Source of the DNA: Oscarella lobularis | Taxonomy: Eukaryota | Reading direction: 5' to 3' | Assembly (NCBI RefSeq): GCF_947507565.1 | Contig: NC_089179.1 | Location: forward strand, 926,681 to 990,680 | DNA: 64,000 bases | Shown here: positions 1,233 to 26,110 of the stretch, piece after piece | How the letters are laid out: each line of letters begins with the position of its first letter | Numbering within the stretch: position 1 is the stretch's first letter | Made by a program: the position numbers and the translations under genes | The notes under the pieces: model-generated | Databases searched by the model: none | Told to the model about the DNA's origin: nothing | What the model saw: the letters and a program-made list of their open reading frames with translations, nothing else

Positions 1233-4200
1233 TTAAAAGGCAACTGACGCCGAAGACAAGCAAATGCAGAAAAACCGTGTAGAAGAATATGAACAGGCGG
1301 GCAAATTTGCTGGACAGAATGAAACGCCCCTATAAAAGACAAAAAGCGAAAAGTAAAGGCGACGAATTGCGCCGCTTCGCGGTAAGACCATGTTAAGCGT
1401 TGCTTTTTCCGGTCCACTCAGGTCTACTATTCGTCTTTCTCGTTCCTGCAGCAGATCAATCTTGAGGTCAGTCGATATGTACCACACTACTTAGAATACC
1501 AACGCACTCGTCTGCTAAAGACCGAAAAGGGATCCATTCTTGCTTCGTACTCTCCCGAGTACTTGCTGATCGTTTCGTCGTGGCGAGTGCCACCGGTCTA
1601 TAAACACCGCGTCTGCTACTTGAAAAATCAATAGGAAACAGCGTATATGTATACTGATGATTGGTAGCCTTGAAGAAATTTGATCTTTTCGTAGAGCTTA
1701 ACGTTGTCCGAGCGAAGCGAATCGACTTCTGTTTTCAAACTTGCAACGAGCTGCTCTTTGTGCTTGTTCGTCTGTGACGCGCGGCCGCGTGAAAGCGAGC
1801 GGAAAACAAGAGACATCGGCGAAACTCACCGCTTCGAGCTCCAAATTCCTCATTCGGAATCGTTCCCTTTGGCTTGAAATGATAGGAAGCAACGACGCCT
1901 CTGTCGTCGTAGCCGACGAATCAACTGCGAGATTGAAATATTCTACGTCAAGACATACATCATCCAATCGATTGTGTCTTCTCTCGCCTTCGCTGACTGC
2001 ATCTTGAGCTGCCTTCGCCAGCACTGTGACGCCAGTGTCTCGGCAATCTTCTCCCTATCGGGATCGACGCTGTAGATATGCCGGCCACATGCAAGCTGTT
2101 CCTACCTCTCCTTCGGTGCGTGCGGGAAGAAAATTGCGAACGTTTGCCAAATCCGACTCCAGCTGCTGAATCAGTGTCGTCTGTTTATCTCTGTCTTCTT
2201 TTGATTCGGACAGCTCGGATTGGAGAGCAGCAGCTTGGGCTTGGCATAAGCTCTGAGAAGCAATCAAGGTGAGAAAATAGCAAATAGCTTACTTTGTAGC
2301 TCTGTTTGGGAGAGTCGAAGTTTTGTGTTCTCAGACTGAAGTTCTGGAGCGGAAATTGATTTTAGAAAGTGGAAAAATTGAACGAGCGTACTTCTATTCT
2401 TTGCTATCAGCAACGCTTCAAGAGTCTTGGCTTTTCCCTACAACAATTGCGTGATCGATGTTGCCACTTGCCAGTACAAAGCTCCTACTTCTTTTTCTTC
2501 TTCTTCAGATGACGAGAACTCCATAGACTTCAATATGCTGATGAACAAAAAAAACGTGAGCACTTTCCGACAGTATTGTCGGTAAAGCAACCTTAATTCT
2601 CTTTTCATTTCTTCGTAGTCTTGCTGCTCAACAAGCTTTCCTTCCTAGTCAAAAAAAGAGTCGCAAAGCCTCTAAAACAGTCCGATTTTCAACACACCAG
2701 GCTCTCTATGACGGCAGCCTGGGCGCCGAGTCTTTCTTCCAACACAACAACCTAAGAAACGTCAGTATTTCGGCACAAGGTAAAAAGAAACGACTTACTT
2801 TATTAGCCTCGCCGTCTTTTAATTTCGTCATAGCTCCTTGCAAACGCTGGACATCAGAGACAAGTTGGGCTATCTGCAGAAACGATTGCGACAAAAGTAA
2901 GTTCAACTCTCTAACGGCTCACCTCGCGTTCTTTGGCGGCAAGCTCAAGCTCCATGGTCGTTTGCGACATGCTGGCCATGCTCGTTTGCATGCTCGAACT
3001 CATCAACGCTTCCTCGCGTTGCGCCTGCTGATCCATTTTGACGCTCTCCTGAAGCAACTCGAGTTCTTTTTCGGCAACCAGCGCCCTATGATTCGACCGC
3101 TCGAGATCGGTTATGACAATAGAGACCTCGGACGTCCTGGACAACGCAAGAGACTAAGTAAGTATACGAGCTATGTATGGTTCACCGCTCACTTTGCAGC
3201 TAGATCTTCGTCGTATTTCGATTTGAGGTCGAGCACTTCCGACTGGGCGGCGTTGAGAGCTGAATGGGAAAAGAAGCCGGTGTCGATCCATCGCGTTTCT
3301 TCCGAGTTGGCTTACCCGTTTGCAAGGCAACGATCCTCTGCTCTGCCTCGCCCAACTTTGTGGCAACGGCGACTTGCGTCTCCTGCAAAGCCCTGTAAGT
3401 GCAAAATTGACAAGAAACGATGATTGGATAAAACTCTTTCCGCGCCTTTCAGCAGCCGTGTGTTCAAGTTGAAGCTCTTTCACTTTTTCTTGCACCAGAG
3501 CCTTTCCGGGAATTCTTTCATCAAGTATGACAATCTACCTGTTTTGGTCGCATTACCGCCATATCTTCTTCTCGCCTGTCCTCCATCTCTCTAATCTTTT
3601 CTTTTAGACAACCAATAGTAACCTCTACACAAGGGCTACGATGGACGTGTGCAAGTGACGTTGTCATATGAGCTTGCCTTGATTCTTCACTTGGGCAAAC
3701 TCGCTATTGTACTCAGCAAGAGTCTCTTTCAGCTTCTTATTCTCAATCTCAAAAGCCTGCAGCAATCATCTCTCTCTCACAAACACAATAAACGATACTG
3801 GGTCAACCTGTAAAGAATCTATCCTCCTTTGTTGGGACGCCACCTGCTCCAATGCAGCAGTGGGATCTGCCATGAACATCAGAAAAACAAGCACAAGCAC
3901 GCACAGTCCAGACTTCACCTGGAGCATCAGCAACTTTTCTGTATATATTCAAAAATGCTGTCTCGGCCGCTTTACTTCGCCGTGACAACGAGTCAACCTA
4001 CATCAGCTTGCCCCACTCAAAAAACGACAGTACCACGCCCCCCAACGAACTTCTGCCTGAAAACTTTTCAGCAATGGTGCCACCTGCTTTCTCGAATCCT
4101 GTTTTAATCCGATTAATTCATTAATTTTTTTCTACTGTAGGTGCGCGCGCATTGAGGCACACCTCAGGCACTGTTTTCTTGAACTCTCGACTCAATTCGA

Positions 4201-4372
4201 CGAGGCGTCGGCGCGACGTTTCCGATTCGTCTTGACGCGTCGCTATTTCGCTTGCCGTCACGTCGAGGTCATTCTGACGAGAAACACGGCACTGAAAAGG
4301 TTTTCTCGTCTATTTGTTCCTCACCTGCAGACGAGGCAAGTCGAAAACTCTCCAGTAATCGAGCACGGACAT
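1233..4372 (-). CDS. CASP: Golgin CASP (CUX1 alternatively spliced product homologue; coiled-coil Golgi tether with C-terminal TM), multi-exon
   Basis: First exon MSVLDYWRVFDLPRLQ followed by a gt donor matches the CASP N-terminus (FQYWKRFDLQQLQ). Further exons contain AAETAFLNIYRKV, IVITDLERSNHRALVAEKE, LLPIISSQRERFRMRNLELEA, and SLKTEVDSLRSDNVKLYEKIKFLQGYQ (the CASP C-terminal signature KLYEKIKFLQSY). After that come PEKATLNM and a hydrophobic tail. All exons are on the minus strand, separated by ~50-70 bp GT-AG introns. Confidence 0.8.
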
Positions 4373-5546
4373 CCTTTTGTTGTGTATTCTAACGTACGCT
4401 AAAGGTAAATATGCTGCCAAATCGATTGAACGCGTTCAAAGCGAAAGGTCTGCCCTTCAAGGAGGCAGTCAGACAGGTAGAAGCATATTTTTAATTCTTG
4501 CGTTGGAGCTCTAAACGCTAGAGATGCTTGGAACGCGTTCGAAGGAGTCGAGACAGGAGGATGAGTCAAAATCGTGATCTTACTAGCGACGATAATGTGA
4601 TTCAATTGATCAGAGAAGAAGCGCTACAGCTGAAAGAAGAAATAATGGAAGAAGAGGTAGAGTAGAAAATTAAATAGCTCCTTCTGTATCAATACTAATT
4701 ATAAGAATTTTTTTCAAGGGTATTGGACATTCATTTACTGATTGGCCTTGTGACGATATTGATAGACTGATATGTAGTGACGTAGCACTGCAGGCAGAAA
4801 TACAGGAAGCAGGCACGCTCTCTAACGAACGATATGACTCTTATAAAGAGTGGCTTACTGTGTAGCTGTTCTTCTGTTGGAGGAGGAGCTGACTCGTAGT
4901 TCAGTAGAAGAAGAAGAGGCGGCGGCACGTTTAAATGTAGTAGAAAAAGATTTGGTGGTTTGTCCACTGTGCAGAACGTATGCCCTAATAAGGAACGAAG
5001 GATCTTGATTGCTTATGTACTTTGCCTGCAACACGTAGGAACTATCTTTATCAAGTAGGATCAGTGATAAAATGCTCGTGCGGGGTTGCCATAGACACAG
5101 AGGTACAGAAGAAAAACGTTTAGCTAATACTATGTATTCTATTTCTATTCATTTTGTAGCAGGACTGTATTGGACTGTCGTACGTTAGGACTCAGCTTGA
5201 AGACCTCCACAGCGAACATAGGTAACTCCCGAGCACGGGTGTACACGCTGCTATCCTAATCTTCTTATGTCTTAGCTCTCAGTGTCTGCTTCAGCTAGAG
5301 TTTTCTTTGCAAACATTGCCAAATATGTCTAGAATTCATCTTTTGGTGAAGTGCAATGTGAGCACGGTCTCTTTTCTTCTCTACGCTAATCTTTCTCTTT
5401 TAGAATTGCAACTTTGTAGGAATTGTTGTCTAAGCTGAATGGATTTGTGGGAATTTATTGTAGACCATAGCAGGGAGACCATAGATTACTCCATAGCTCC
5501 ATAGATTATTTATAGTAGGCCTAGCGCACGTGGTCCTTTTGGAGAC

Positions 5547-7397
5547 ATGGCGTGCAGTCGCGTCTGTGGCGTAGTTTCCTCCGCCCTGTTGGACTACAAC
5601 ACGTCGAAGCTCGTGCACATTCGTAATCAAAAGATCGGACTCATCTACAGACTCGTGCAACTGGGAGTCATCGTCTACATCATCGGGTAGACAGTAAGGC
5701 CCCGGCCCCGGTCCGGCAAAGACTATTCGTTCTCTTGATCCTGTGTCAACGCCAGATACGTCATCGTTATAAAAAAAGGCTACCAAGAGACGGACACCGT
5801 CCTAAGTTCGGTGACGGCGAAAATGAAAGGAATGGCGCTGGTGAAAGGAAATCATACGGATGCGATTTGGGACGTTGCCGACTACGTTGTGCCTCCTCAA
5901 GTAGGAAAAAAAATGACAGGTTTACCTTTCTGATACGTTATGCACACTGCGTCTCTAGCAAACGGACTCCGTCTTCGTCACTACAAATGCCATTATAACG
6001 GAAAATCAGACATACGGTGTTTGTCCTGAGGTGAACCTACTTGTAGTGGGGCTCTACTGTACAGTAGGTGACGGACTCGCTTTTCCAGGATTCATATGTT
6101 GCTGCCGGTTCCTGTGACTTTGACGCTGATTGCCCAGCTGACACTCCAGTTCGAAATGGAAACGGTAGAAGTTTCACGACGTTTGCAACTTTCTTTATCT
6201 CTTTTTCTTCAGGTTGGAGAAACGGCACGTGTGATAATTCGACTCACACGTGTTTTATCTATGCTTGGTGTCCCACGGAGACTGATGTGGGCCCGTCAAC
6301 GTCTGTACTTTATAGCACAATGCTATTCTTTCCTGTATCGACTTGTTTTTAGGCCTCTGCTTGGAGATGATCCAAAGAATTTTACTCTTTTTATCAAGAA
6401 TAACGTTCAGTTTGAAAAATTTCATTTTCACAAGTAGCCATATTAATTTGTCAAGTAGATTATGTAGACGGAAGTTTTTAGGAGCAACGTACTGGAAGCT
6501 ACAAGCGGCGTAAACATATCGTTTCTTCGAAACTGCACATATAATGCCTCGGATCCTCAATTTCAATATTGTCCCATCTTTCGACTTGGAACCATTTTAG
6601 ATGAAGCAAACGAAGACTACGAACCGATAGCCCTTAAGGCATGCTACGTGACGCAAATAGAAATTCAAAAAAAATCGATAAATGTGTGCTAGGGTGGCAT
6701 CATGGGCATTTTCATCACGTGGAATTGTAACTTGGACTACTCCACCTCTCACTGTGAACCTAAATACAAATTCAAAAGGTGCTCTTAGATTAGAGGACTT
6801 AGTGTTTAGGAACGAGTCTCGTTTCTGCGTAGGCTTGATAATGCAAAAGCTGCCATTGCACCGGGCTACAGTTTCCGGTATCATCTCTGATTTTCTGTTG
6901 TCAATCATAATTAGTTTGATTCAGCTACCCAATCTATTATTTTGTGAACGGGGTAAAGTATCGACAGCTTGTCAAAGCGTATGGCATACGATTTCAGATA
7001 CTTGTCAGTGGGACGGTAAGTAATCTCTAGGAGGAACAAACGCATGAAGCGAGGAGATGGGATTCTTTTAGGCTGGAAGATTTAGCGTCGTTCCACTATT
7101 TCTAAACATTGGCTCTGGAATAGCTCTTTTGGGAATAGTGAGCGAGATTTCCTGCGGAAACGTTATCATACTATTATATCTGTTCATTGACAGAGTACGG
7201 TGTTGTGTGATCTGCTTGTTCTGTACGTCGTAAAGAGAAGGAAATACTACAAGGACAACAAGTACGAAACAATCGAAGACGAAGAAGCACTGGTGAGTGT
7301 CTCTTGTTGCTTAGCTTCGTAAGAAAAAGAGTTTGTTTGCGAGTAGTTTGGGCCCAAAGAAAAGAACTTGCAAGATTATAAGAAGGTTGAAGAATGA
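5547..7397 (+). CDS. P2X purinoceptor (ATP-gated cation channel), paralog A, multi-exon
   Basis: N-terminus MACSRVCGVVSSALLDYNTSKLVHIRNQKIGLIYRLVQLGVIVYIIG (P2X TM1 region). Ectodomain exons: EKGYQETD-like, SVTTKMKGVA, GSCDFDADCPADTPVRNGNG, CFIYAWCPTE, NFTLFIKNNVQFEKFHF, GGIMGIFITWNCNLDY, YGIRFQILVSG. TM2: AGRFSVVPLFLNIGSGIALLGI. Tail: YYKDNKYETIEDEEAL. Probable last exon FGPKEKNLQDYKKVEE*. Confidence 0.85.
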
Positions 7398-7575
7398 CGC
7401 AATTTTTGTGCAAGTAAGCGCTGGTCTCTGTGGCGCTAATCTCGTTATTATTTAGCCTTTGTAGTTCTCCCGCAGATACATTACGTATTGACAGTGCGTA
7501 ATACGGGAAAGAATTTAGCCCACATTGTGCACTCGCGCTACACTTTCGCAGTTCGGCGGTGCAATCACAAATCGA

Positions 7576-9430
7576 ATGGCGTGTCGTCGTTGCTGCGAGT
7601 CCACGTCGGGCGCTCTCTTCGAATACGATACGTCCAAATTGATTCACATACGCAATCAGAAAATCGGCTTCATTTACCGACTCGTACAGCTCGTCGTCAT
7701 CGTCTACATCATCGGGTTAGAACGAGAGCAAGAGCAAGAGAGAGCCTTCGAACGATAAGACCGACCTCGTGCCGGGGCAGATATGTCATCGTTCTAGAGA
7801 AAGGCTATCAGGAAACGGACACCGTGCTCAGTTCAGTGACAACGAAGATGAAAGGGGTCGCTCTCGTGCAAGAAGAAGGTCAAGAAACTCCGAACGTGTG
7901 GGACGTCGCCGACTACGTCGTGCCGCCCGAAGTAGGAGAGAAATTGGGTAGTATTTAATTGGAATCTAGCGGTGTCCGCGCGACGATAGCAAACCGACGC
8001 CGTTTTTGTCACGACGAATGCTCTCGTAACGAGGAATCAGACTCGCGGTGTCTGTCCTGAGGTAATCGCAAAGATCTGCCTACTATGGATGGGTGGTTGG
8101 GTGGTTGTATCTAATAGAATCTTTAGGATTACAATGTGGCTGCTGGTCGTTGTACAGTTGATTCTGATTGTCCGGCAGATACTCCAGTTCCAAATGGGAA
8201 TGGTTCGACTCTGGCTACTTGTATCTGCGCTTTCTCATCGTTGTTTTCTTCTAAGGTTGGAGAACTGGCACTTGTGATCTAACAACAGAGACTTGTCTTG
8301 TTTATGCTTGGTGCCCAGTGGAAAATGATAGTAACAGGTTGGAGCAATCTCGTGCAAAAGACGCGTAAGTTGTATTCGATTTTTTTTCTAGTGATACTGT
8401 TCCATCGCTTGGTAACTATCCATTGAATTTTACTCTCTTGATTAAGAACAACATCCAGTTTGAGAAATTCGGTTTCTATAAGTAGGTGATTGTCTGGTGA
8501 AACTTTTTAGTTTTGACGATTCTTCCCTTCCGTGCGTACAGAAGCAACATTCTAAATGCCACCAATAGCACGTTCTTGCAAAACTGCACATATGACAGTC
8601 ACGATCCGCTTCGACGATTTTGTCCAATATTTCGGCTCGATACGATGCTCGAAGAGGCAAAAGTGGACTACAATGATATCGCCCTAAAAGTAGGCTTGTA
8701 GAATCATAAACCATCATTGAAATGGCATGTTAGGGAGGAGTCATGGGCATTTTCATCAAGTGGGAATGCAATTTGGACTACTCTTCATCCAACTGTCGTC
8801 CGCAGTACGAGTTCAAAAGGTTATTTATACTAGTATACTTGCATGCTCAGTAATCAAAAAAGCCATTGCAGACTTGACAACGCAAATTCCTCTGTTGCAC
8901 CAGGCTACAGTTTTCGGTTGGTTAATTAAACGGTAGCTGATCTTCGTAACGTGCCTTCCTCAGGCACGCAATAAACTATGTGGTTGATGGAGTAATGCAT
9001 CGTCAGCTAACTAAAGCGTACGGAATACGATTCCAAATACTTGTTAGTGGAGAGGTAGGCGATTGATTGTTTGCTTTGTGTGCCCACTACAGTGTGTTTA
9101 CTAGGCAGGAAAATTTAGCGTTGTACCGCTCTTTCTCAACATCGGTTCAGGCATAGCTCTGTTGGGAATTGTAAGGGAGGAAGGGGACGTAAGGAGTGAT
9201 TCACTTTCGTTTTCTATTTATCTAGAGCACTGTGCTGTGCGATCTGCTTGTCTTGTATGTCGTAAAGCGAAGACAGTACTACAGGGACAACAAGTACCAG
9301 ATGATTGAAGACGAAGAGTCTCTGGTACGCTAATCTTTTGCTTACACGTGCATTGCGTTGTCATCGTATCTTGCGCACGTGTAGCTTGGCTTTGTCGAAA
9401 TCAAAGCTAGCAAGAAAGATGAAGACTGAC
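7576..9430 (+). CDS. P2X purinoceptor, paralog B (tandem duplicate of paralog A), multi-exon
   Basis: MACRRCCESTSGALFEYDTSKLIHIRNQKIGFIYRLVQLVVIVYIIG; VLEKGYQETDTVLSSVTTKMKGVALV..TPNVWDVADYVVPPE; CIVDSDCPADTPVPNGNG; GGVMGIFIKWECNLDY; YGIRFQILVSGE; AGKFSVVPLFLNIGSGIALLGI; YYRDNKYQMIEDEESL. Probable last exon LGFVEIKASKKDED*. Same exon order as paralog A. Confidence 0.85.
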
Positions 9431-9641
9431 GTTGCAGTCTCTGATGACCCTTTTTTTGTACTCTTTCTCCTATGCAATAGTGCCCAGCAGCGGGAGCAGC
9501 TTCCGTACGAAAAATGAAAAAAGAAGAATTGCTATCACGTATGTAATAAGTAATCCTATCTTCCCCTTACACGTACATCTCATCAAGGCTACAACAAAAA
9601 AAACGTAGAAATGCACGTAATGTACTATCACCGTTTTCTTT

Positions 9642-10710
9642 CTAATACAAAACAGCATCGTCGTCTTCGGCGAATCGTCGCAGCGCCATCTTGCTGTTTG
9701 GCGGCATCGTCGACATGGTCGCCAATCGTCGTCCGTGCGCGTTGTGCGCCGCCGACGCTCGATCGATGTCGCGGGAGCGCTCCTCGAACAGCATCAAATT
9801 CAACGACTCCTCATAGATTTTCGTCTCGGGAAATTCGATTTTCGTCTGCTTCTTCTCCGTCGCGTAAACAATTGATTCGCAACAAATCTCAGCGACTTTT
9901 TTCCCGTGCCCATAGAATGTCCAGCAGCAGATTTCGGACGTGCCGACAACGTCTTTGACGAACATGACGCGACTGGCAAACTTGACGCAGAGCCGATCGA
10001 ATAGCTCAATGTTTTTTAACAAATTTTCGTCGGAGTTGCTACGGCAAGAATTTACCACAACTATTCGCACATTCACACAGTATCAATACCTCGTATAGGA
10101 GTACTTGTTATTGCTTCGGTTGTACATGAGACGAACGACAGGCTACGTCACAAAGCGTGTAAGCCAATATTTATTTATTAAGTATTCACGATTTTTTCTA
10201 CTTTGCGAGAATTTTCCAGTATCTTCTGGAGTTGACCTGATGCTGTGAGCACGGGAACGTACGTCATCGGCGGACACGGATCGCGCAGCATCATCAATCT
10301 CGTTTGAATCTGCCTTTCAAGATCTTCAATGAGGTAATACTTTGCCTCGGCGAGCAATTCTTCCAAATCTTGTTGCGCCTCGGGCAGCGGCGTCGAACTG
10401 TCTCGAAAATAGTTCAAAATCTTCGCGAAGTGCTTGCCGCACCGATCGATGAGAACCCATCCTTGAGAAAGGGGTAAGATTTTTTTGACGTCACTGTTAG
10501 CGCACGCCGCGGAGACTCGCCTTCGGAATCGAGCAGCACGTCCATTCGACCGCTGAACATGGCCTTGAGCATGCTGTCGTGCTTCGTGAGCGTTCCCGTC
10601 GTCGTGTAGAAGAGCGTGCCGCCGATGTTGAGACGGACGTACTCGCCGTGCGTCGACGAGTAGCGAACGAGTTGAGCCGACGAGACGGCTGGAGGCGGCA
10701 GGTCGGACAT
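9642..10710 (-). CDS. BTB/POZ KCTD protein of the BACURD family (KCTD10/KCTD13/TNFAIP1-like Cul3 substrate adaptor)
   Basis: BTB region: [40 protein letters not shown], then [42 protein letters not shown]-terminal block: [86 protein letters not shown]. This is near-identical in pattern to KCTD10 ([50 protein letters not shown]). The apparent stop after ..KIVNT at 10178 lies in an intron. Confidence 0.8.
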
Positions 10711-10885
10711 TTCGTTCTCCGCTCCTCTCAGGTACGAGAGCGCGTCTGTGGCTATATTTAGAAGTTGTGCCCCTGGTTGATACTCCTAATGACGTAACGT
10801 AATTCACGTGCTCGACGGGGCGCGCCCCAAACAACACATTTCTTTGCATTTCGTTAGTTGTGCGATGCGAATCTCTACAACGTGT

Positions 10886-12403: not shown

Positions 12404-12685
12404 CGTGCTATCTCGCTAGCGCGCGTTAGTCAAAAAACTGTACTGAAATTGCGCTGAAATTCTGCAAAAATGAACTCAAACGACTTCAAAGACTCGACGT
12501 TAGCAGCAGGAGGAATCCCCAAGAGAGCCGGCGAACCGAAAAGCCGATTAGAAACATATCTACGACGACGTGCAATTGAACAATTCGCATTGCTCATTCG
12601 GCGAGACCTAACACTCGTCCAAAGTGTTGACAATTGACGCAGAAAACCCCCGAATCAAATCGAGACGAAGGCAAACTCCTTGCGC

Positions 12686-15600
12686 CATGCCCGCTCGTCC
12701 CGCAGACCCAGGAGACGTCGCAAACGCGCGAAAAGACAACGAATCGCAAAAACAGTCGATCGGCAACGGAATCGCCGCCGATTCAATGACGACGACGTCG
12801 ATCGGCGGCGTAGTCAACTTGTCGTGCCACGGCGCCAACGTCGGACTGACGCTCGATCGTCGAACGTTCAAAATCACGTCGATCGAGCCGTCGAGCGCGG
12901 CGGGAAAGAGCGATCTCGTTCACGTCGGCGACGTCGTCTTACGCGTCAACGGTCACTGCACGGCGGCGCTCGAATACGAACGCGTCGTCGATCTGCTCGC
13001 GAACGTCGCCGCCGGCAGAATCGATCTCAAAATTATGCGAAACGTGCCGAAGGCGGAGCCAGCGACGTCGCTCGAGTATAATATCCCGCCACTTTGGGTC
13101 GAGAGCGATCATCGGTGCGGTGGCCCTCTAGCGGAGAAGGTCGACCGATTTTTTTTCTGTTTTCTTAGTCACAATCACGGCGAGATGAACGGTCAGGCAC
13201 CGTCGGCGTCCGGAGGAGGCGGAGGCGGCGGGAGAATGCCTCGACGAGCGATGAGCTTGGCTAACGACGGGCGACCGGGAAGTCCGTTGGCGCGGCGGAG
13301 CTATGTTCAGTTGAAAAATTGGTCTACTGAGAAACGGATGACCGATACGCTTCACAGTCGAGTCAAATCGGTGAGTAGGTGGAGTTCTCGTTCTCGATGG
13401 CTTTTCTCTCTTCGAGGAAAGGAGGGCGAGGCAGGTGTCGCGAGAAGGCAGGCGCGCTTACATCGGTTCTAGTAGAGAGTCCGGTTGACTCTATAAATGG
13501 TCTTTATTTTTCTAAGGTCTAGCTCATGCATACGTATGTCGAACAAAGCCTGGTGGGGCTTTTCTAGGCACCGGTGGAGCATTCGTGCCCGGTTTTTGAC
13601 CCGTTCTTTTTGTAACTGGCTGATCCTCCGTTTTTCCTCCTCCGTGCCCTCTCCGTGCCTCTTTCGCGTATCGTGTTTCATCTGCCTTTTTCACCTCTCC
13701 AAACGAGATCGCTCGAGACTTTTTCGCACACGCCTCGCAATGTTGTGTCTCGTTCGCGGTTTCTGCAATAAATGCGCTCGTTCGATTGACTCCCTGACAT
13801 CGGTGGCGCGCTCTTGTTTGGGGCGTTCTTCAGTCAATAAAGCCGGAATTCAAGCGAACCAGTTGCGTTGGGTTCTAGACTTTCACAACGTCGCTACACG
13901 ATACACTAGGGGCGTAGACTTTCCTCAGGGAGCGCGTACGCATGTTTTCTTTTCAAGAATGCACACGTTTTGCAAGAATAGTTCACCAACAAGTCGTATA
14001 GCTCCGCGACTCGCGCACCTGCTCGCTTTCTTCCATGCGGTGGTGGCGTTTTTTATCTCAAGTCAAAATGCCGCCCACCGCGGAAATGGAGGGGGGAGGG
14101 CCGGCCCGTCGCGCGATCTCATCCCTCTTCCCTCCTGCAGGTTCACGATACGTGGTGCAATCCGAATCATTGCCAAGGATCGATCATGTATCCGCTCGGC
14201 GCCGAAGTGAAACGCTTGCCGGGCGAATCTCGTTCGAAGGATGACGTCATCGATCAGGCGGAGGCATTCCTGAGCGAATATTTTCAATCGCTAAAAAAGT
14301 AGATTATTTTTCGTTCTCACTTCCTTGCTATTTTTCGTAAATCGATATTCAGACGAAGCGACAGTCAGAGCACGAAGAAGAAATTGGAGGAAATGGAAGC
14401 GAAGCGAATGCGCGAAGTCGTCGCCGAAGTCGAATTGAAAGGCACGTACGAATTAGACGAAAAAGAATTGGTGTTCGGCGCCAAACTTGCGTGGAGAAAC
14501 TCGCCGCGATGCATCGGACGCATTCAGTGGAACAAGCTTCAGGTACCGGCCGCGCGAACGTGACTGGGAGGCGGGGCGGGGCGGGGCGACGACGACGTCG
14601 ATGTTTTTTAGGTATTCGACTGTCGACACATTTCGAGTGGCGAGGAAATGGAACAGGCGATACGTCATCACATCAAATTTGCAACGAATGGAGGAAACAT
14701 CAGGTAGGAGGAGTATGCAAATTGGCGTGTCTTCTCGCCCAATCCCCGTGGCGGCGGCGATGTTTTCTTCCCAAGGTCGGCTATCACCGTGTTTCCTCAG
14801 CGAACGAGCAAACGAGACGACTTCCGTATATGGAGTCCCCAATACTTCCGCTACGCCGGCTACAAAATGGAGGACGGCACGATATTGGGCGACCCGGCAA
14901 CGGTCGACTTCACCGAAGTGAGTGCGCAACGAACGTGTTCACTGAGCAAAAATGCGACGTGTTTTATATAGATAGTCATCGGTTTGGGATGGAAGCCGCC
15001 GGAGGAGAAGACCATGTTCGATTTGATGCCCATTGTCATTCAAGCGCCGAGAGAAAAACCTCGTCTCGTCGACGTATCCGATCTCATTCTCGAAGTCGAG
15101 GTCTGGCATCCGCAGTAAGTCCATTCGATAAGGGGAGGGGAAAAGAAAAAAAAGTTGTGAATTCTAGGTATCCGTTTATGAAAGATTTGGGCCTAAAATG
15201 GTACGGATTGCCCGCTGTTTCGAACATGATGTTCGACGTCGGCGGCCTCGAGTTTCCCGCCTCTCCATTCAACGGATGGTGAGTCCCACTCGCCGCAGAG
15301 AGTTTCATTGAGATTCACGTTCCTTCTCAAAGGTACATGGCCCCCGAGGTGGCGGCGCGCAACTTCGGCGACACGTATCGTTTCAACATGCTCGAACCGG
15401 TTGCCAAGGGCATGGGACTCGATACGAGTTCGCTGTCGACTTTGTGGAAAGACAAGGCGCTCGTCGAGCTCAACGTTGCCGTGCTGCACAGCTTTCAGGT
15501 GAGAGATCGGTCCGGACGGGAGGAAACCGTATACATCATTGAAATATTTCCTAGGAAGCTAAAGTGACGATTAATGATCACCATTCGGCGGCCGCTTCCT

Positions 15601-18600
15601 TTATGCAACATTTGGAGAAAGAGGTGTGGATCAATATTATCTATTGATTTGATGATATATGACTCTTCATCTTAGGTATCTCTTCGCGGAGGTTGTCCTG
15701 CTGATTGGGTGTGGATTGTTCCTCCTTTGTCAGGGAGTGCGACTCCGGTATTTCATCAGGTCAGCAACCCGGAAGAGATGTCTAATTAATTATTTATTTT
15801 TTATTGTATACAAGGAAATGCTCAATTACAAGATGAAACCGTCTTTCGAATACCAGGTTTGCTAGATAACGAATCGGCGTCCTCCTTATTACGCGCGACG
15901 CGCCTCTATAGGAGGCCGCTTGGCTCACTCAACGCTCGATCGACAAACAGGCGAAGAAGCAGAAGAAGAGGGGCATCAAGACGCTCGTCAGCGCGGCGCG
16001 AGTCGTCATGATGTCGATGCAGCTCTTTCAGCACCAGCTCATGAAACGAGTGCGCGTGACGATACTCTACGCGACGGAAACGGGCAAATCCGAGCGCTAC
16101 GCAAAGGACGTCGCCAGTCTGTTCAGTCACGCCTTCGCCGTAAAGGTAGAATAAAAAATCGTCGAGAAACGTTCTATTTTGATGCGTTTTTTCTTTTTTC
16201 TTTTTTTTTTCGAGGTCGTCTGCATGGAAGACTACACGTTCTCTGATATCGAATACGAGCAACTACTGCTGACCGTTACGAGCACGTTTGGCAACGGCGA
16301 TCCGCCCGACAACGGCGAGGTGTTCGGTCGCGAGCTCTACGAAATGCGTCATCCGCCGCCGCTCGAGGAGGAGAACAAGAACAAGCGAAAAATCAGCAGC
16401 ATACACTTGGCCATGTCGAGCAAACACTATCAAGGAAATCGGGACGATTCGCAGCCGTTGGCCAACGTTCGGTGAGTTATAATAATAATAAGACCGCGCC
16501 GTTGATAAATACTCGGCGACCTTTCGGCTAGATTTTCTGTCTTTGGGCTGGGCTCGCGCGCCTATCCCAACTTCTGCGCCTTTGCGCGATCCGTCGATCG
16601 CTTGCTCGGCGAACTCGGCGCCGAGCGCGTCTACGAGAAAGGCGAAGGCGACGAGCTGTGCGGGCAGGAGGAGTCGTTTCGCAAATGGGTCACCGGATGC
16701 TACGAGGCCGCCTGCAAGACGTTCTTCTTGGACACGAATCTGAAGGACTATTCGGACGCTTTGTCGACGTCGTCGAAGGAATGGCAACCGGATAAGTTTC
16801 GCGTGTCCGTTCAGACGGGCAAAGTTCCTGTTACCGATCTGTGCAAGAGTACGCCGGCGCGTGCGAGAGAGATTTAGATTGATTTACTTTTTCTGCGTAG
16901 ATCTTTCGGATCTTCACAAGAAGAACGTCTATCCGTGTCGCATGCTGTCGCGCACCAATCTCCAGAATGAGGAATCGCCGTACGTCGCCGGCTGGATAGA
17001 TAGGCGGCGGTCTCTTTGTGACGTTCGTCGTTTTTTTCTTTGTTTCAGACGTTCGACTATCTTGGTCAAAGTCGACATTCAGAACGAGCCCATGCTCGTG
17101 CACGAACCCGGCGATCATTTGGCTATCTTTCCGCAAAACCAACCATCGCTCGTGAATCAGCTCATCAAGCATTTGATTGACGCAACGCCGCCAGACGAAC
17201 CTGTGCTCGTGGAGTACAACAAAGGAAAGAAAGGTGAAAGCAGAGGGGGGGGGGGGGGGGGGGGGGGGGGATGAAACAATTTTTAATTCTAAATTCGTTT
17301 TAACGGCAGGCGACGACTGGAAACCTTTTGAGAGGCTTCCACCTGGCTGCACTCTCCGCCAGGCACTCCAGCAGTATTTGGATATTACTACGCCTCCAGC
17401 TCCTCAGTTCCTTGCCATTCTTGCTACACTGGTACGCCGGCGAGGGAGAGGGGGGAAAGGAGCTCTAAAAGCACCCCTGTTCTTCTTTTAGACGGCCGAT
17501 CCAAAAGAGAAAGAGAAACTGTTAGAGCTTTCTAAAGTCGGTGTCTGGAGAGCCACGCTTTTGCAGCGATAGTTAAATGTTTTTCTTTAGGGAACAACCG
17601 CTTATGAGGACTGGAAATTTGACAAGTGTCCGAACATGGTTGAAGTTCTCGAGGAGTTTTCCTCTCTCGAAGTGCCCACTTCTCTCTTTTTGGCCAAGTT
17701 GCCCTTGCTTCAGTCGGTAAGTTCGATCGATCGATCGAGAGTCTCGTCGCAACGACGATTATGTTTGCGTAGAGATACTATTCTATTTCGTCTTCGAGAG
17801 AATACGTTGGCGGAGAAATTCACTGCACTGTTGCCGTCGTCTCGTTTCGAACTCAGGGAGGAAGTGGTTCGCTCCACCACGGCGTCTGCTCCTCGTGGCT
17901 GAATCGAATTACGAAAAATACAATAGTGCCCTGCTTCGTGCGAAAGTATAGCAAAAGTGGAAATCGTTGGCGACACACGTAAAAGTAAAAGTCTCATCGT
18001 CATTTTTTTTTCAGAGCGAGCTCGTTCTATTTGCCGGAATCAAAGAAATCGCCCGTACTCATGGTTGGTCCCGGCACCGGCATCGCTCCTTTCCGTAGTT
18101 TCTGGCAGCAACGCAAAATCGAAATGGAGCTCAAATTTACCGTTCAATCGAGTGGCAAACTTGATGCCATAGCGGAGGATCAAGAGGGTCCCATGTGGGG
18201 CGACATGGCCCTGTTTTTCGGCTGTCGTCATCCCAAATTGGATCACATCTACAAGAAGGACATGGAAGAGCTCGTCAACGAAGGCGTTCTGGCCAAAGTG
18301 GGCTGCGCCTACTCGAGAGACCCCAATCAGCCGAAAGTAAGACGAGCTATCTTATTGCGAAGTTAATCTCCATACATTGGCTACGTCTTTTAGCAATACG
18401 TGCAGGATCAGTTGAAGCAGGAGGGCGAGTATATCATGCGGAAACTGCGAAAGGAGAACGGGCACTTTTACGTGTGCGGCGACGTTTCCATGGCTGCCGA
18501 CGTGGGCAAGACGCTCGAGGTGCATTAGAGTTCGCAATTGTTTGATCAATTTCCAACGACGTTACGTTGCTCTTTTCCCTAGGTCATATTCGAGCAGCAC

Positions 18601-19048
18601 GGCGGAATGTCGTCGACTGAAGCGAGAGCGACCGTCGAAAAGATGAGAGTAAGATTCGCGTGTGTCCGCTTTTGTTGCTTCAATTTGATTTGATCCTGGT
18701 TGCTATTGTCTACCTTTCGCTTCTTTTGTTTGTCGCGAACCCCGCTCTCCTTTGTTTGCTTTGTCCGTATAAAGCGTGCGAACCTTTCTAAATGCATACC
18801 TGTTCGTTTGCGCTAAGGCTATGGGACACTACCACGAAGACATCTTCGGCGTGACGCTGAGAACAGCAGAAGTGACCGATCGTGTCCGAAACGCGGCAAA
18901 GAAGTACGTAAACAGCGGTCTTTGTATAGTAGCGGTTTGTCACGAAACGAACGTAGGGCATGGAAAATTATCGCAGATGCTTCAGGGCAAGAAGAAGTGG
19001 TACGACTATTCGACTTCTATCTTTTGTCATCTACCAAAAATTGTCTAG
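12686..19048 (+). CDS. NOS: Nitric oxide synthase, nNOS-like (PDZ + oxygenase + CaM-binding + FMN with autoinhibitory insert + FAD/NADPH reductase), about 20 exons
   Basis: PDZ: [68 protein letters not shown] (nNOS KNWETD..TDTLH). Zn site [13 protein letters not shown]. Heme Cys: [41 protein letters not shown]; [25 protein letters not shown]; [40 protein letters not shown]. CaM site [23 protein letters not shown]: [31 protein letters not shown]. Autoinhibitory insert [21 protein letters not shown].., then [23 protein letters not shown]: [82 protein letters not shown]. The 3' end lies somewhere in 18905-19056 and is uncertain. Confidence 0.9.
13372..14140 (+). other. Unusually long (~770 bp) intron between the NOS PDZ exons and the oxygenase exons; candidate internal regulatory or alternative-promoter region
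   Basis: Exon ..HSRVKS|gtgagt at ~13371. Next coding exon (T)[18 protein letters not shown] follows ..ctcctgcag at ~14140. All other introns in the window are 45-70 bp. The ORFs inside this interval are low-complexity or in alternative frames. Confidence 0.3.
17244..17272. repeat. Poly-G homopolymer tract (~29 nt) in a NOS intron (G-quadruplex-capable, or an assembly artefact)
   Basis: agcagag + ~29 g residues + atgaaac directly after exon ..YNKGKKGE. Confidence 0.6.
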
Positions 19049-19540: not shown

Positions 19541-20765
<1,225 letters not shown>

Positions 20766-22250: not shown

Positions 22251-23610
22251 TTAGAGGAAAGCTATGGTACCACCTTTCTCGGGTTTTTCAAACCAATCAT
22301 CGAGTGGTTTGAACAGATCATCTTTGAGATCTGACAGATTTTGACGTGGTGGACAGTTTTTGCGTTGAACGCAACGATCAGTGCCGTTGATACTGTAAAG
22401 ACCTGGCGGACACTGACATCCCTTGACGCAGACGAGCGGACACGGCCCCGGCGCCGTTCCACACGTCAGCGGACACATAGTTCCACACGACGTATAAATT
22501 TTGTCTCCGGTGCACGTTTGACCTGCAAATCAAAAATAGTACCGTAAACGCTAAAGATTCGAAAGAGACCGGTTGGGGGGCATTCTTCCGGTCGGACGCA
22601 TTGCTTAGTGGCGTTGTTTTCGACGAGTCCTTGTGGACACTGACATCCCGCATGGCATATCTTTGGGCACGGTACGAAAGGCAGCTTTGCATTCTTGCAC
22701 GTGCGGCGACACGGGCTTCCGCATTCGAGGAATACTTTACCGCCCGTGCAAACAGGTTTTGGTTCTAAAACGCTCTTATAGAAACCGCTCGCACGCACTG
22801 GGACGCATACTTGGTGTAGGTTTCGGACACTCTTCGAGTCTTATGCATCTTGTGACGCCGTTCCTGTCGGTGTGCTCTGTTTGCCCTCGAGGACACTGAC
22901 AGCCTCTGACACAATGAAAAATGCATTTTCGACCGGTGAGACGATCGCACGTAGGCGGGCACGGACTTCCGCATCCTCGAAAGATTTTACCTCCGGTGCA
23001 TTTGGCCCAAACTAGAAAATTTGTTTCCGAGCGCAAATCTCAGATGTACAGTAGGAGAAACGTTCGTACTTTGAATACGGCATTGACTCAGTGGCATGCA
23101 CTGTCCTGTCATCTTGTTCTCGACCGTGCCTTTGGGGCACTGACATCCAGGCAAGCAGGGCTGGGTGCGGGCACACACGCGGTTGGGGTAGACGCACGTA
23201 TTAGGACAGGCACTGCGGCAAAGTTGAAATACTTTTCCGCCTGTGCATCGTGCCGCGAATGGGTTGAAAGGGATTCCTACACACGAGCGCGCAAAATTTT
23301 AATGAATTGGTCTGGCGCTTCGTCGGCCGTTAGACAGGTGTGAGACGATAGCAGTGGAATGCTTCTCACCGCAGCAGTGGAACGCGCGAAAACGCTGCTT
23401 CGCGAAGTAGTCGGAGAGTCAGATTTACATGCAAAACGTTAAAAGTAGAATAGGGCAAAGGACTGATTGGTCCCAATTTTGTTGTTTGAAGGCTCGTTTG
23501 CCTCTGCGCAAAGAGCGACGGCTTTAGAAGCCGTATCACTTGCACTTACCGTAGGCTTGCGGCGAAAAGTAGCAGAGAGCGAGGAGAAGCGTCACGCAGG
23601 TTGCAAGCAT
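22251..23610 (-). CDS. Secreted cysteine-rich protein with four TIL (trypsin-inhibitor-like) domains; putative serine-protease inhibitor
   Basis: Signal peptide MLATCVTLLLALCYFSPQAY, then a gtaagt donor. Four repeats of the TIL pattern C..G..F..CGS.C..TC...C...C..GCQCP.G...C: CTGGKVFQLCRSACPNTCVY..CLPGCQCPKGTVEN..CMPLSQC; CTGGKIFRGCGSPCPPTCDR..CVRGCQCPRGQTEH..CIRLEECP; CTGGKVFLECGSPCRRTCKN..CHAGCQCPQGLVEN..CVRPEECP; CGTMCPLTCGT..CVKGCQCPPGLYSI..CVQRKNCP. Confidence 0.75.
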
Positions 23611-25463: not shown

Positions 25464-26110
25464 ATGGCCACATTCGCGATCTTCTCCGTGTTGGTAGCAT
25501 TTCTCGTCGCCGTTCGAGCTCATCCGACTTACTACGAAGTCGACGAGCGCTACTTGCAACCTGGAGCGCTGCCTCCTTTCAATTCCTACCACATCCACGT
25601 CATGTTCGTCAACGGCAACAACGAATCCATCAAAGCAGCCATGGAATTTCACGACGAGTTTGTCGAAAAGTTTAATCTAACTGGAACGAAGCCGTGCACC
25701 GGAAATCTTCATCAGGGTCGCCTCTGCATGTTCGGTAAGAAAAGCGTCCAAGACGAGCCATTTGTCACGTCACGTCTTTGCGCAGAGGTTGAAGTGCAGC
25801 CGTCGTCCGACTCTCCCTTTATCTCCGGACAGTGGGCTGCATTCGTTCCACTGGAAGACTTTCAACGATGTAAGTGTTCATGAACTTGATCAAGGAAACT
25901 TGATCTGCCTCTCGTTTAGGCGTTCCTTGGACCATGCAAAACCGAAAGGGCCTCGACATCTTTGTTCATCCCAACTCCGGCAAGGGACTCGATGACCACA
26001 CGCTTTGGCCGCTGTGGTAAGATGGAATTTCAATTATTAAAAAAAAGTCAATTCTTTTTTCTAGGGGTGGCATGCCTTGGCCAATCAACGTGGCAGCATT
26101 TTCTACCTAA
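25464..26110 (+). CDS. Secreted DOPA 4,5-dioxygenase-family (DODA/YgiD-like) protein, 3 exons
   Basis: Signal peptide MATFAIFSVLVAFLVAVRA; YHIHVMFVNGNNESIKAAMEFHDEFVEKF (family YH.H.YF..), then a gtaagt donor; next exon VPWTMQNRKGLDIFVHPNSGKGLDDHTLWPLW; short last exon GGMPWPINVAAF. The family assignment rests on the motif pattern only. Confidence 0.55.

What the first reader, a model, noticed from the sequence alone, without database searches (positions are those of the whole stretch)
5547..9430. Two tandem, collinear P2X ATP-gated channel paralogs immediately upstream region of a full nNOS gene
Two complete P2X genes, 5547-7397 and 7576-9430, share exon order and 70-80% protein identity. 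Their N-termini differ only slightly (MACSRVCGVVSSALLDYNTSKLVHIRNQKIGLIYRLVQLGVIVYIIG versus MACRRCCESTSGALFEYDTSKLIHIRNQKIGFIYRLVQLVVIVYIIG). P2X channels are missing from several major invertebrate lineages such as insects and C. elegans, so a lineage-specific tandem duplicate is informative for taxon assignment and for channel-diversity studies. Ca2+-permeable P2X channels sit 3 kb from a Ca2+/calmodulin-dependent NOS and 5 kb from a syntaxin-1-like SNARE. This adjacency may be coincidental, but it could reflect shared chromatin domain regulation in excitable cells.
Basis: partly seen in the sequence, partly recalled or inferred. Interest (0 to 1): 0.5.

Follow-up and report, generated by a model that had tools for sequence, protein, structure and literature searches.

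The report
Two tandem sponge P2X channel genes
These are two intact, neighbouring genes for ATP-gated (P2X) ion channels in the sponge Oscarella lobularis: a real and ancient tandem duplicate, but one already annotated in RefSeq and belonging to a well-known family, so it is ordinary.

Summary
Window 5547-7397 (+) and 7576-9429 (+) each hold a complete 13-exon P2X gene with 44-69 bp introns. They encode 398 and 396 aa proteins that are 72% identical.

Both translations are letter-for-letter identical to RefSeq proteins named "P2X purinoceptor 4-like [Oscarella lobularis]": XP_065830397/8 and XP_065830399. The genes are therefore already annotated.

Both match Pfam P2X_receptor end to end (E about 1e-134), and human P2X4 is the closest solved structure. 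They keep all ten ectodomain cysteines, the ATP-contact Lys/Thr/Arg/Lys residues and the YxxxK motif.

The duplication is old. dS is about 1.8 (saturated), omega is about 0.11, and the introns cannot be aligned. This rules out a pseudogene and an assembly artefact.

One deviation: the Asn of the NFR ATP-contact motif is Ser in both copies. This is a minority natural variant, seen in 6% of divergent P2X clusters.

The proposed link to NOS is not supported:
- A BTB/KCTD-type gene on the opposite strand lies between P2X-B and the PDZ-NOS gene.
- The syntaxin-like gene is 14.6 kb away, not 5 kb.
- Neither Corticium nor Trichoplax has NOS within 10 kb of its P2X genes.

Interest is low.

The parts
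5547..7397 (+). P2X gene A, 398 aa. It has 13 coding exons: 5547-5686, 5756-5900, 5959-6030, 6089-6164, 6213-6300, 6353-6433, 6482-6638, 6693-6778, 6833-6877, 6925-7015, 7072-7137, 7194-7292, 7347-7397. Introns are 47-69 bp.
   Evidence: Manual splice model. The translation is 100% identical over its full length to RefSeq XP_065830397.1/XP_065830398.1, 'P2X purinoceptor 4-like [Oscarella lobularis]'. Pfam PF00864 E = 2.4e-134. Human P2X4 structure 9bqh E = 6e-113.
7576..9429 (+). P2X gene B, 396 aa. It has 13 coding exons: 7576-7715, 7781-7931, 7990-8061, 8127-8202, 8256-8337, 8392-8481, 8542-8689, 8734-8819, 8872-8916, 8964-9054, 9105-9170, 9226-9324, 9385-9429. Introns are 44-65 bp.
   Evidence: Manual splice model. 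The translation is found exactly in the protein collection as XP_065830399.1, 'P2X purinoceptor 4-like [Oscarella lobularis]'. Pfam PF00864 E = 3.1e-136. It is 72% identical to A.
7398..7575 (+). A 178-bp spacer between the stop codon of A and the start codon of B. It must hold the 3' UTR of A and the promoter and 5' UTR of B.
   Evidence: Coordinates. None of 13 common poly(A)-signal hexamers occurs in it. It shares no repeat with the region upstream of A.
6870..6872 (+). Codon AGT = Ser295 of A, at the position of the conserved Asn of the NFR ATP-contact motif (human P2X4 N293, zebrafish P2X4 N296).
   Evidence: Alignment to human P2X4 and the multiple alignment. This column is N in 117 of 121 close homologues and in 119 of 133 divergent cluster representatives.
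8909..8911 (+). Codon AGT = Ser295 of B, the same Asn-to-Ser replacement in the NFR motif.
6639..6692 (+). Intron 7 of gene A, which has a GC-AG boundary (donor GCATGC). An in-frame GT donor 9 nt further downstream would add three residues (ACY).
   Evidence: Only the GC donor gives the 398 aa product, which is identical to the RefSeq protein.
9642..10849 (-). Intervening gene of the BTB_2 (KCTD-type) family. It runs convergent to P2X-B and divergent from NOS.
   Evidence: ORFs. Pfam PF02214 BTB_2 E = 1.5e-9. The extent is approximate because I built no full gene model.
12687..18898 (+). Neighbouring NOS gene with an N-terminal PDZ domain, given for context and not part of the P2X pair. Its domains are PDZ, NO_synthase oxygenase, flavodoxin-like, FAD_binding_1 and NAD_binding_1.
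   Evidence: Pfam hits on exon ORFs. Exon translations are readable. The oxygenase part is 60-61% identical to insect NOS and to the human eNOS oxygenase domain. The limits are approximate.

Best explanation
The window is nuclear DNA of the homoscleromorph sponge Oscarella lobularis. The feature is a head-to-tail pair of paralogous genes. Each encodes a complete subunit of a P2X4-like, trimeric, ATP-gated cation channel of the animal 'Branch 2' P2X type.

The pair arose by an ancient tandem duplication of a roughly 2.03 kb unit. Both copies have since been kept under purifying selection, so both most likely make working subunits.

By homology, extracellular ATP binds at the interfaces between subunits. 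The contacts are K69/K71 and T185/K189 from one side and S295/R297/K314 from the other. Binding opens the pore lined by TM2 and lets Na+, K+ and Ca2+ through.

The pore, TM2 and juxtamembrane C-terminal region are 85-95% identical between A and B, whereas ectodomain segments are 60-70% identical. The inferred division of labour is a difference in ligand or modulator sensitivity rather than in permeation. Co-assembly into heterotrimers is possible.

Both copies carry Ser in place of the Asn that contacts the beta-phosphate of ATP. This predicts lower ATP potency than in canonical P2X4 unless other residues compensate.

Shown here: gene structure, family membership, residue conservation, age of the duplication and selection. 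Inferred: channel activity, heteromerisation, the effect of the Ser, and expression.
For: - Both models have exact RefSeq protein matches.
- Both give full-length Pfam P2X_receptor matches.
- The best solved relatives are human and zebrafish P2X4, E = 1e-113 to 1e-99 over residues 6-381.
- The following are invariant in an 11-sequence alignment and in 121 homologues: ten ectodomain Cys, K69, K71, F184, T185, K189, F296, R297, K314, the N-terminal Y-x-T-x-K, TM2 N339/G343/D355, and Y368-xxx-K372.
- Divergence: dN = 0.196, dS about 1.8, omega about 0.11. pS is 0.5-0.84 in every 40-codon window.
- Eleven of 12 intron positions and phases are shared, and intron sequences are no more alike than shuffled controls.
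- Relative-rate tests with Corticium outgroups are not significant, chi2 = 2.4 and 0.2.
- DNA similarity is confined to the exons.
- Published context: sponge P2X receptors and ATP-evoked, PPADS-sensitive contractions are described in Ephydatia (PMC11883242). Tandem P2X arrays are described in Clytia (PMC10620158).
Against: - I could obtain no direct expression or electrophysiological evidence.
- The Asn of the NFR motif is Ser in both copies. Asn-to-Cys or Asn-to-Ala changes at this position lower ATP potency 60-fold to more than 300-fold in P2X1, P2X2 and P2X4 (PMC2459275; PMC3874471). ATP sensitivity might therefore be low.
- The 178-bp spacer has no recognisable poly(A) signal, so how the two transcription units are separated is unclear.
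- Omega is a pairwise average. It cannot exclude a very recent loss of function in one copy.
Confidence: 0.9

Rival explanations
1. The pair is ancestral to Homoscleromorpha, and the copies look species-specific only because gene conversion homogenised them within each lineage. On this view it is not an Oscarella-lineage duplication.
For: Corticium candelabrum also has two P2X4-like genes on the same strand of one chromosome, 13 kb apart. Ser in the NFR motif is shared by Oscarella A, Oscarella B and Corticium copy 1.
Against: - Species-specific clades have 100% bootstrap support.
- There are 39 informative sites for (A,B | C1,C2) against 5 and 6 for the alternatives. They are spread evenly, with no unconverted block.
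- Synonymous divergence is uniformly saturated, with no conversion tract.
- The flanking genes differ completely, and two unrelated genes sit between the Corticium copies.
Confidence: 0.25
2. One of the two copies is an unexpressed or decaying pseudogene.
For: There is no expression data in hand. Copy A has slightly more unique substitutions than B (31 against 20 with outgroup P0002) and uses one non-canonical GC donor.
Against: - Both have 13 intact exons, no frameshift or stop, and usable splice sites throughout.
- Omega is about 0.11.
- The rate difference is not significant.
- Every residue that is invariant in the family is kept in both copies.
- RefSeq models both as protein-coding.
Confidence: 0.05
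3. The two copies are haplotypes, or an assembly duplication, of a single gene.
For: None beyond their adjacency and equal length.
Against: - CDS nucleotide identity is only 71%, and third codon positions are 49% identical.
- dS is saturated and the introns cannot be aligned.
- The longest exact shared stretch is 23 nt.
Confidence: 0.01
4. The P2X pair, NOS and syntaxin form a co-regulated neighbourhood. This would be an ATP to Ca2+ to NO signalling cassette kept together by selection.
For: - P2X-B ends 3.26 kb from a PDZ-NOS gene, and a syntaxin-1-like gene lies 5 kb beyond NOS.
- A functional ATP-NO link in sponge contraction has been proposed (PMC11883242).
Against: - A complete BTB/KCTD-type gene on the other strand separates them. 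NOS shares its 5' intergenic region with that gene, not with P2X.
- At least nine gene-like units lie in the first 25 kb, so proximity is cheap.
- There is no NOS within 10 kb of either Corticium P2X or of the Trichoplax sp. H2 P2X, and no shared flanking genes.
Confidence: 0.05

Closest known systems
Vertebrate P2X4 (human 9bqh, zebrafish 4dw1/3h9v structures)
   Same: About 46-47% identity over the whole subunit. Shared features are two TM helices, ten ectodomain Cys, K67/K69/T186/R295/K313 (P2X4 numbering), the N-terminal YxTxK/R and the C-terminal YxxxK.
   Different: Ser replaces N293 of the NFR motif. The cytoplasmic tail is short and differs from that of P2X4. The genes have 13 tiny-intron exons in a compact sponge genome. 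No functional data exist.
Corticium candelabrum P2X4-like pair (XP_062503812, XP_062502254)
   Same: These are the closest relatives, at 56-61% identity. They come from the same sponge class. The two genes lie on the same strand of one chromosome, the exon matches are collinear, and one copy also has SFR.
   Different: The copies are 13 kb apart with two intervening genes. The genes are longer (3.9 and 7 kb). The flanks differ (MutL-like and Rab3GAP). The paralogues cluster by species.
Tandem P2X array ChP2X2-4 of the hydrozoan Clytia hemisphaerica (PMC10620158)
   Same: A lineage-specific tandem expansion of Branch 2 P2X genes in a non-bilaterian animal.
   Different: Three copies in a cnidarian, with a reported role for eATP in wound closure. 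I made no sequence-level comparison here.
Demosponge P2X (Ephydatia muelleri Em0004g77a; PMC11883242)
   Same: A sponge P2X described as sharing the characteristic conserved P2X motifs, set in a physiological context of ATP-triggered, PPADS-blocked contractions.
   Different: A different sponge class. According to that paper the canonical NFR motif is retained. The paper does not report a tandem arrangement.

Membership tests
P2X receptor family (Pfam PF00864) | Full-length match to the family profile above the curated threshold | tested here: met
   A scores 448 bits and B 455 bits against a cut-off of 27. Both cover profile positions 1-360 of 361.
P2X receptor family (Pfam PF00864) | Ten conserved ectodomain cysteines (five disulphides) | tested here: met
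   C117, C128, C134, C151, C158, C164, C219, C231, C265 and C274 are present in A and B and invariant in the alignment.
P2X receptor family (Pfam PF00864) | ATP-contact residues K-x-K-G, F-T, K190-equivalent, R of NFR, and K313-equivalent | tested here: met
   K69, K71, F184, T185, K189, R297 and K314 are conserved in both copies.
P2X receptor family (Pfam PF00864) | Asn of the NFR motif (contacts the beta-phosphate of ATP) | tested here: not met
   It is Ser295 (codon AGT) in both A and B. The column is N in 117/121 close homologues and 119/133 divergent representatives, and S in 4 and 8 respectively. This is a minority natural variant and does not exclude membership.
P2X receptor family (Pfam PF00864) | Two transmembrane segments with conserved TM2 residues, the N-terminal Y-x-T-x-K/R site and the C-terminal Y-x-x-x-K motif | tested here: met
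   By alignment to P2X4: Y17/T19/K21, N339/G343/D355 and Y368/K372. I ran no separate TM prediction.
P2X receptor family (Pfam PF00864) | ATP-gated cation current as a trimer | not testable with these tools
   This needs heterologous expression and electrophysiology.
Tandem gene duplicates | Same strand, adjacent with no gene between, shared exon-intron structure, and the copies being each other's closest relatives | tested here: met
   The spacer is 178 bp. Eleven of 12 intron positions and phases are shared. The (A,B) clade has 100% bootstrap support.
Conserved co-regulated gene cluster (P2X-NOS-syntaxin) | The adjacency is conserved in related genomes | tested here: not met
   There is no NOS and no shared flanking gene within 10 kb of the Corticium or Trichoplax sp. 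H2 P2X genes. I could not examine longer-range linkage.
Conserved co-regulated gene cluster (P2X-NOS-syntaxin) | Co-expression or a shared regulatory domain | not testable with these tools
   No expression or chromatin data are available here. An opposite-strand BTB/KCTD-type gene intervenes.

The most novel reading that the evidence does not exclude
The Asn-to-Ser change in the NFR ATP-contact motif is shared by both Oscarella copies, one Corticium copy and a related metagenomic sequence. It may make these homoscleromorph channels naturally low-affinity ATP sensors, or sensors with shifted agonist preference. They would then respond to damage-level ATP in a range like that of P2X7, or to a different nucleotide. 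The two tandem subunits might co-assemble into heteromers that feed Ca2+ to the neighbouring Ca2+/calmodulin-type NOS in the sponge contraction pathway.
Probability: 0.15. Interest if true: 0.4.

Novelty: already known. Interest (0 to 1): 0.15.

Why it matters
The finding matters little beyond bookkeeping. It confirms that a homoscleromorph sponge keeps two selected, P2X4-like ATP-gated channel genes side by side. It also adds one more example of lineage-specific tandem expansion of P2X genes in non-bilaterian animals.

The only point worth an experiment is the natural Ser at the Asn of the NFR motif. Expressing A, B and A+B would show how much ATP sensitivity a native P2X retains without that Asn. 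That bears on how sponges, which have no nerves, use extracellular ATP to coordinate contraction.

The proximity to NOS should not be read as functional linkage.

Tried and rejected
- Contig look-ups. Exact-product look-ups for A and B found nothing on record. I therefore obtained no transcript contigs or expression evidence. Look-ups for the Nematostella and Hypsibius P2X also failed.
- Metagenome scan. A scan with the four homoscleromorph proteins returned only distant P2X genes, 27-56% identical on the best segment, and no sister Oscarella locus.
- Related partial P2X proteins. Three partial proteins, 57-61% identical, exist in JGI and Logan data. The one set of contigs I looked up (P0391, from the P0302 cluster) is short, of unknown organism, and shows no second complete copy.
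- Locating the Corticium NOS. A homologue search with the Oscarella NOS oxygenase domain returned only short proteins under about 500 aa. It returned neither the Oscarella nor the Corticium full-length NOS. Chromosome-scale P2X-NOS linkage in Corticium therefore remains untested.
- Synteny. tblastx of both Corticium loci against the whole window found only the P2X exons. The remaining hits, at 22-26 bits, are noise.
- Bacterial-type promoter and terminator scan of the spacer. It found nothing, and in any case it does not apply to a eukaryote.
- Gene conversion. I looked for conversion tracts and for mosaic phylogenetic signal and found none.
- Upstream coiled-coil gene. I rejected the idea that it is the SNARE; it is CASP/CUX1-like. 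The syntaxin-like gene is at 24-25 kb.
- Structure prediction. I did not run it, because sequence similarity to solved P2X4 structures is already decisive.
Full report
**What is there.**

ORF listing and direct reading of 5400-9600 show short coding blocks separated by GT-AG introns of about 50 bp on the + strand. I assembled two gene models by hand.
- Gene A has 13 exons at 5547-7397 and encodes 398 aa.
- Gene B has 13 exons at 7576-9429 and encodes 396 aa.
- The quoted N-terminal peptides are exact.
- All introns are 44-69 bp. All have AG acceptors and GT donors, except intron 7 of A, which uses a GC donor.
- tblastn with protein A finds only these two copies in the 64 kb window.
- Direct-repeat analysis finds eleven repeat families of 71-83% identity spaced 2025-2051 bp apart. 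All coincide with exons.

**Identity and source.**

A search of the large protein collection returned a 398 aa protein, 100% identical over 100% of A, named "P2X purinoceptor 4-like [Oscarella lobularis]". An exact-sequence look-up showed two things:
- Model A is XP_065830397.1/XP_065830398.1.
- Model B is XP_065830399.1, from the same 3.6 Mb record.

B was missing from the first hit list only because its 90% cluster is represented by an unrelated 31 aa fragment. The window is therefore nuclear DNA of the homoscleromorph sponge O. lobularis. Both genes are already annotated with the correct family name. The identity of my model with RefSeq also means that the GC-AG intron in A is the annotated one.

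**Family membership.**
- Both proteins match Pfam P2X_receptor over essentially the whole profile (E = 2e-134 and 3e-136).
- The closest solved structures are human and zebrafish P2X4 (E = 6e-113 to 1e-99, residues 6-381).
- An alignment with sponge, placozoan, cnidarian, tardigrade and vertebrate P2X was made, and 121 homologues were surveyed.
- Both copies keep all ten ectodomain cysteines.
- They keep the two ATP-binding lysines of KxKG (K69, K71), the FT motif (F184, T185), K189, the Phe and Arg of NFR (F296, R297) and K314.
- They keep the N-terminal YxTxK site, TM2 residues N339/G343/D355 and the YxxxK motif (Y368, K372).

**The one deviation.**

The Asn of the NFR motif (human P2X4 N293, zebrafish N296) is Ser295 in both A and B, encoded by AGT in each. 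This was read from the alignment to human P2X4 and confirmed in the multiple alignments.

How common the variant is:
- The column is N in 117 of 121 close homologues. The four S cases are A, B, Corticium copy 1 and a shrew P2X5.
- Among 133 divergent cluster representatives that cover the site, N occurs 119 times and S eight times.
- Ser is thus a recurrent minority state, not a unique one.

What is known about the residue:
- In the ATP-bound zebrafish P2X4 structure this Asn coordinates the beta-phosphate (review PMC3874471).
- N290A and N290C in P2X1 lower ATP potency 60- to 71-fold.
- N288C in P2X2 and N293C in P2X4 push the EC50 above 3 mM (PMC2459275).
- The inference, not shown here, is that these sponge channels are less ATP-sensitive than canonical P2X4 unless other residues compensate.

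**Age and selection.**
- A and B are 72% identical in protein and 71% identical in coding DNA.
- dN = 0.196 and dS is about 1.8, which is saturated. Omega is about 0.11.
- Intron sequences align no better than shuffled controls.
- Eleven of 12 intron positions and phases are identical.
- pS is 0.5-0.84 in every 40-codon window, and the longest exact shared stretch is 23 nt. There is therefore no recent gene-conversion tract.
- Relative-rate tests with either Corticium protein as outgroup are not significant.

These results exclude a haplotypic or assembly duplicate and argue strongly against a pseudogene. The C-terminal third (TM2 and its flanks) is 85-95% identical, whereas several ectodomain windows are 60-70% identical. 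This fits conserved pore and assembly surfaces with diverged ligand or modulator surfaces.

**Sister lineage.**

Corticium candelabrum is the only other homoscleromorph in the collection. It has two P2X4-like proteins 56-61% identical to A and B.
- Both genes lie on the + strand of chromosome record OY729831.1, at 6,156,922-6,160,828 and 6,173,933-6,180,892.
- Two small unrelated genes lie between them. The outer neighbours are a MutL-like gene and a Rab3GAP gene.
- A neighbour-joining tree groups A with B and the two Corticium copies with each other, each at 100% bootstrap.
- Informative sites split 39: 5: 6 in favour of that topology, with no regional clustering.

I favour independent tandem duplications in the two lineages. 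An ancestral pair homogenised long ago by conversion remains possible, at about 0.25.

**Neighbourhood.**

On the minus strand upstream lies a CASP/CUX1-type coiled-coil gene at about 1.6-4.3 kb (Pfam CASP_C E = 7e-23). It is followed by a small + strand gene with no family match at 4.5-5.1 kb.

Downstream of B:
- A BTB_2/KCTD-type gene lies on the minus strand at about 9.64-10.85 kb. Its 3' end faces B and its 5' end faces NOS.
- The NOS gene follows at about 12.69-18.9 kb on the + strand. It has PDZ, NO_synthase, FAD_binding_1 and NAD_binding_1 hits and readable haem-site, calmodulin-region and flavodoxin exons. Its oxygenase part is 60-61% identical to animal NOS.
- A COQ5-type methyltransferase gene (minus strand, about 19.8-20.4 kb) and a TIL-domain gene (minus strand, about 22.5 kb) come next.
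- A syntaxin-1-like gene lies at about 23.99-24.91 kb on the minus strand.

So NOS is 3.26 kb from B but not adjacent to it. The syntaxin-like gene is 14.6 kb from B and about 5 kb from NOS. At roughly one gene per 2.5-3 kb, such proximity is expected by chance.

tblastx of both Corticium loci (plus or minus 10 kb) against the whole window matches only P2X exons. The Trichoplax sp. H2 P2X gene has HEAT-repeat, Cox20 and acyl-CoA synthetase neighbours. Neither species has NOS within 10 kb of its P2X genes. The suggested shared chromatin domain is therefore unsupported, although chromosome-scale linkage could not be tested (one search failed to retrieve the Corticium NOS).

**What is already known.**
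- P2X receptors are documented in sponges. PPADS-sensitive ATP-evoked contractions, with a proposed downstream role for NO, have been shown in Ephydatia (PMC11883242).
- A deep two-branch P2X phylogeny, with sponges in both branches and a tandem array of three Branch 2 genes in Clytia, has been published (PMC10620158).
- Oscarella P2X homologues already appear in a published tree (PMC10133484).
- I found no paper on the O. lobularis pair itself or on the SFR variant.

**Verdict.**

The core interpretation, two complete tandem P2X paralogues, is correct. The functional linkage to NOS and syntaxin is not supported. The feature is an ordinary, already annotated member pair of a well-known channel family. 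The only mildly interesting detail is the natural Ser at the ATP-contact Asn. Interest is 0.15.

Noticed in passing
window 6639-6692: Intron 7 of P2X gene A has a GC-AG boundary (donor GCATGC), while the paralogous intron in B is GT-AG. An in-frame GT donor 9 nt downstream would add ACY. The RefSeq protein corresponds to the GC donor.
   Followed up: partly
window 7398-7575: Only 178 bp separate the stop codon of A from the start codon of B, and none of 13 common poly(A)-signal hexamers occurs there. RefSeq lists two accessions with the same protein for A. Read-through or overlapping transcription units are possible.
   Followed up: partly
window 12624-13472 (+): The NOS gene begins with a PDZ domain (Pfam PDZ E = 7e-7), an nNOS-like architecture in a sponge. 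It also contains two poly-Gly runs, near 13.3 kb and 17.25 kb. I did not examine how widespread PDZ-NOS is outside bilaterians.
   Followed up: no
window 9642-10849 (-): A BTB_2 (KCTD-type) gene sits tail-to-tail with P2X-B, with about 210 bp between the stop codon of B and the end of the ORF nearest it. It sits head-to-head with NOS. I built no full gene model.
   Followed up: partly
The hit covers the Habc region, the SNARE motif and the KARRKK juxtamembrane stretch (E = 9e-23).
   Followed up: partly
window 1600-4300 (-): A CASP/CUX1-type golgin gene (Pfam CASP_C E = 7e-23, CUX1_N E = 5e-6) lies just upstream of the P2X pair. A small + strand gene at 4528-5123, with a CxxC...CxC pattern, has no Pfam match.
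   Followed up: partly
window 19814-20356 (-), 22466-22798 (-), 25464-25883 (+): These are a COQ5/UbiE-type methyltransferase exon (E = 2e-25), a TIL cysteine-rich domain ORF (E = 2e-11) and a 139 aa ORF with a signal-peptide-like start that I did not classify.
   Followed up: no
L016 978-1694 and cluster of P0302/P0391; P0389; P0261/P0395: JGI and Logan environmental data hold partial P2X proteins 57-61% identical to A. They resemble the two Corticium types: one has SFR (P0302) and one has NFR (P0389). This suggests that the SFR/NFR split is older than Corticium itself. The source organism is unknown.
   Followed up: partly
protein cluster of XP_065830399.1: In the 90% clustered protein collection, gene B's product is represented by an unrelated 31 aa metagenomic fragment (P0122). 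That hid it from the homologue search. This is a database artefact, not biology.
   Followed up: yes
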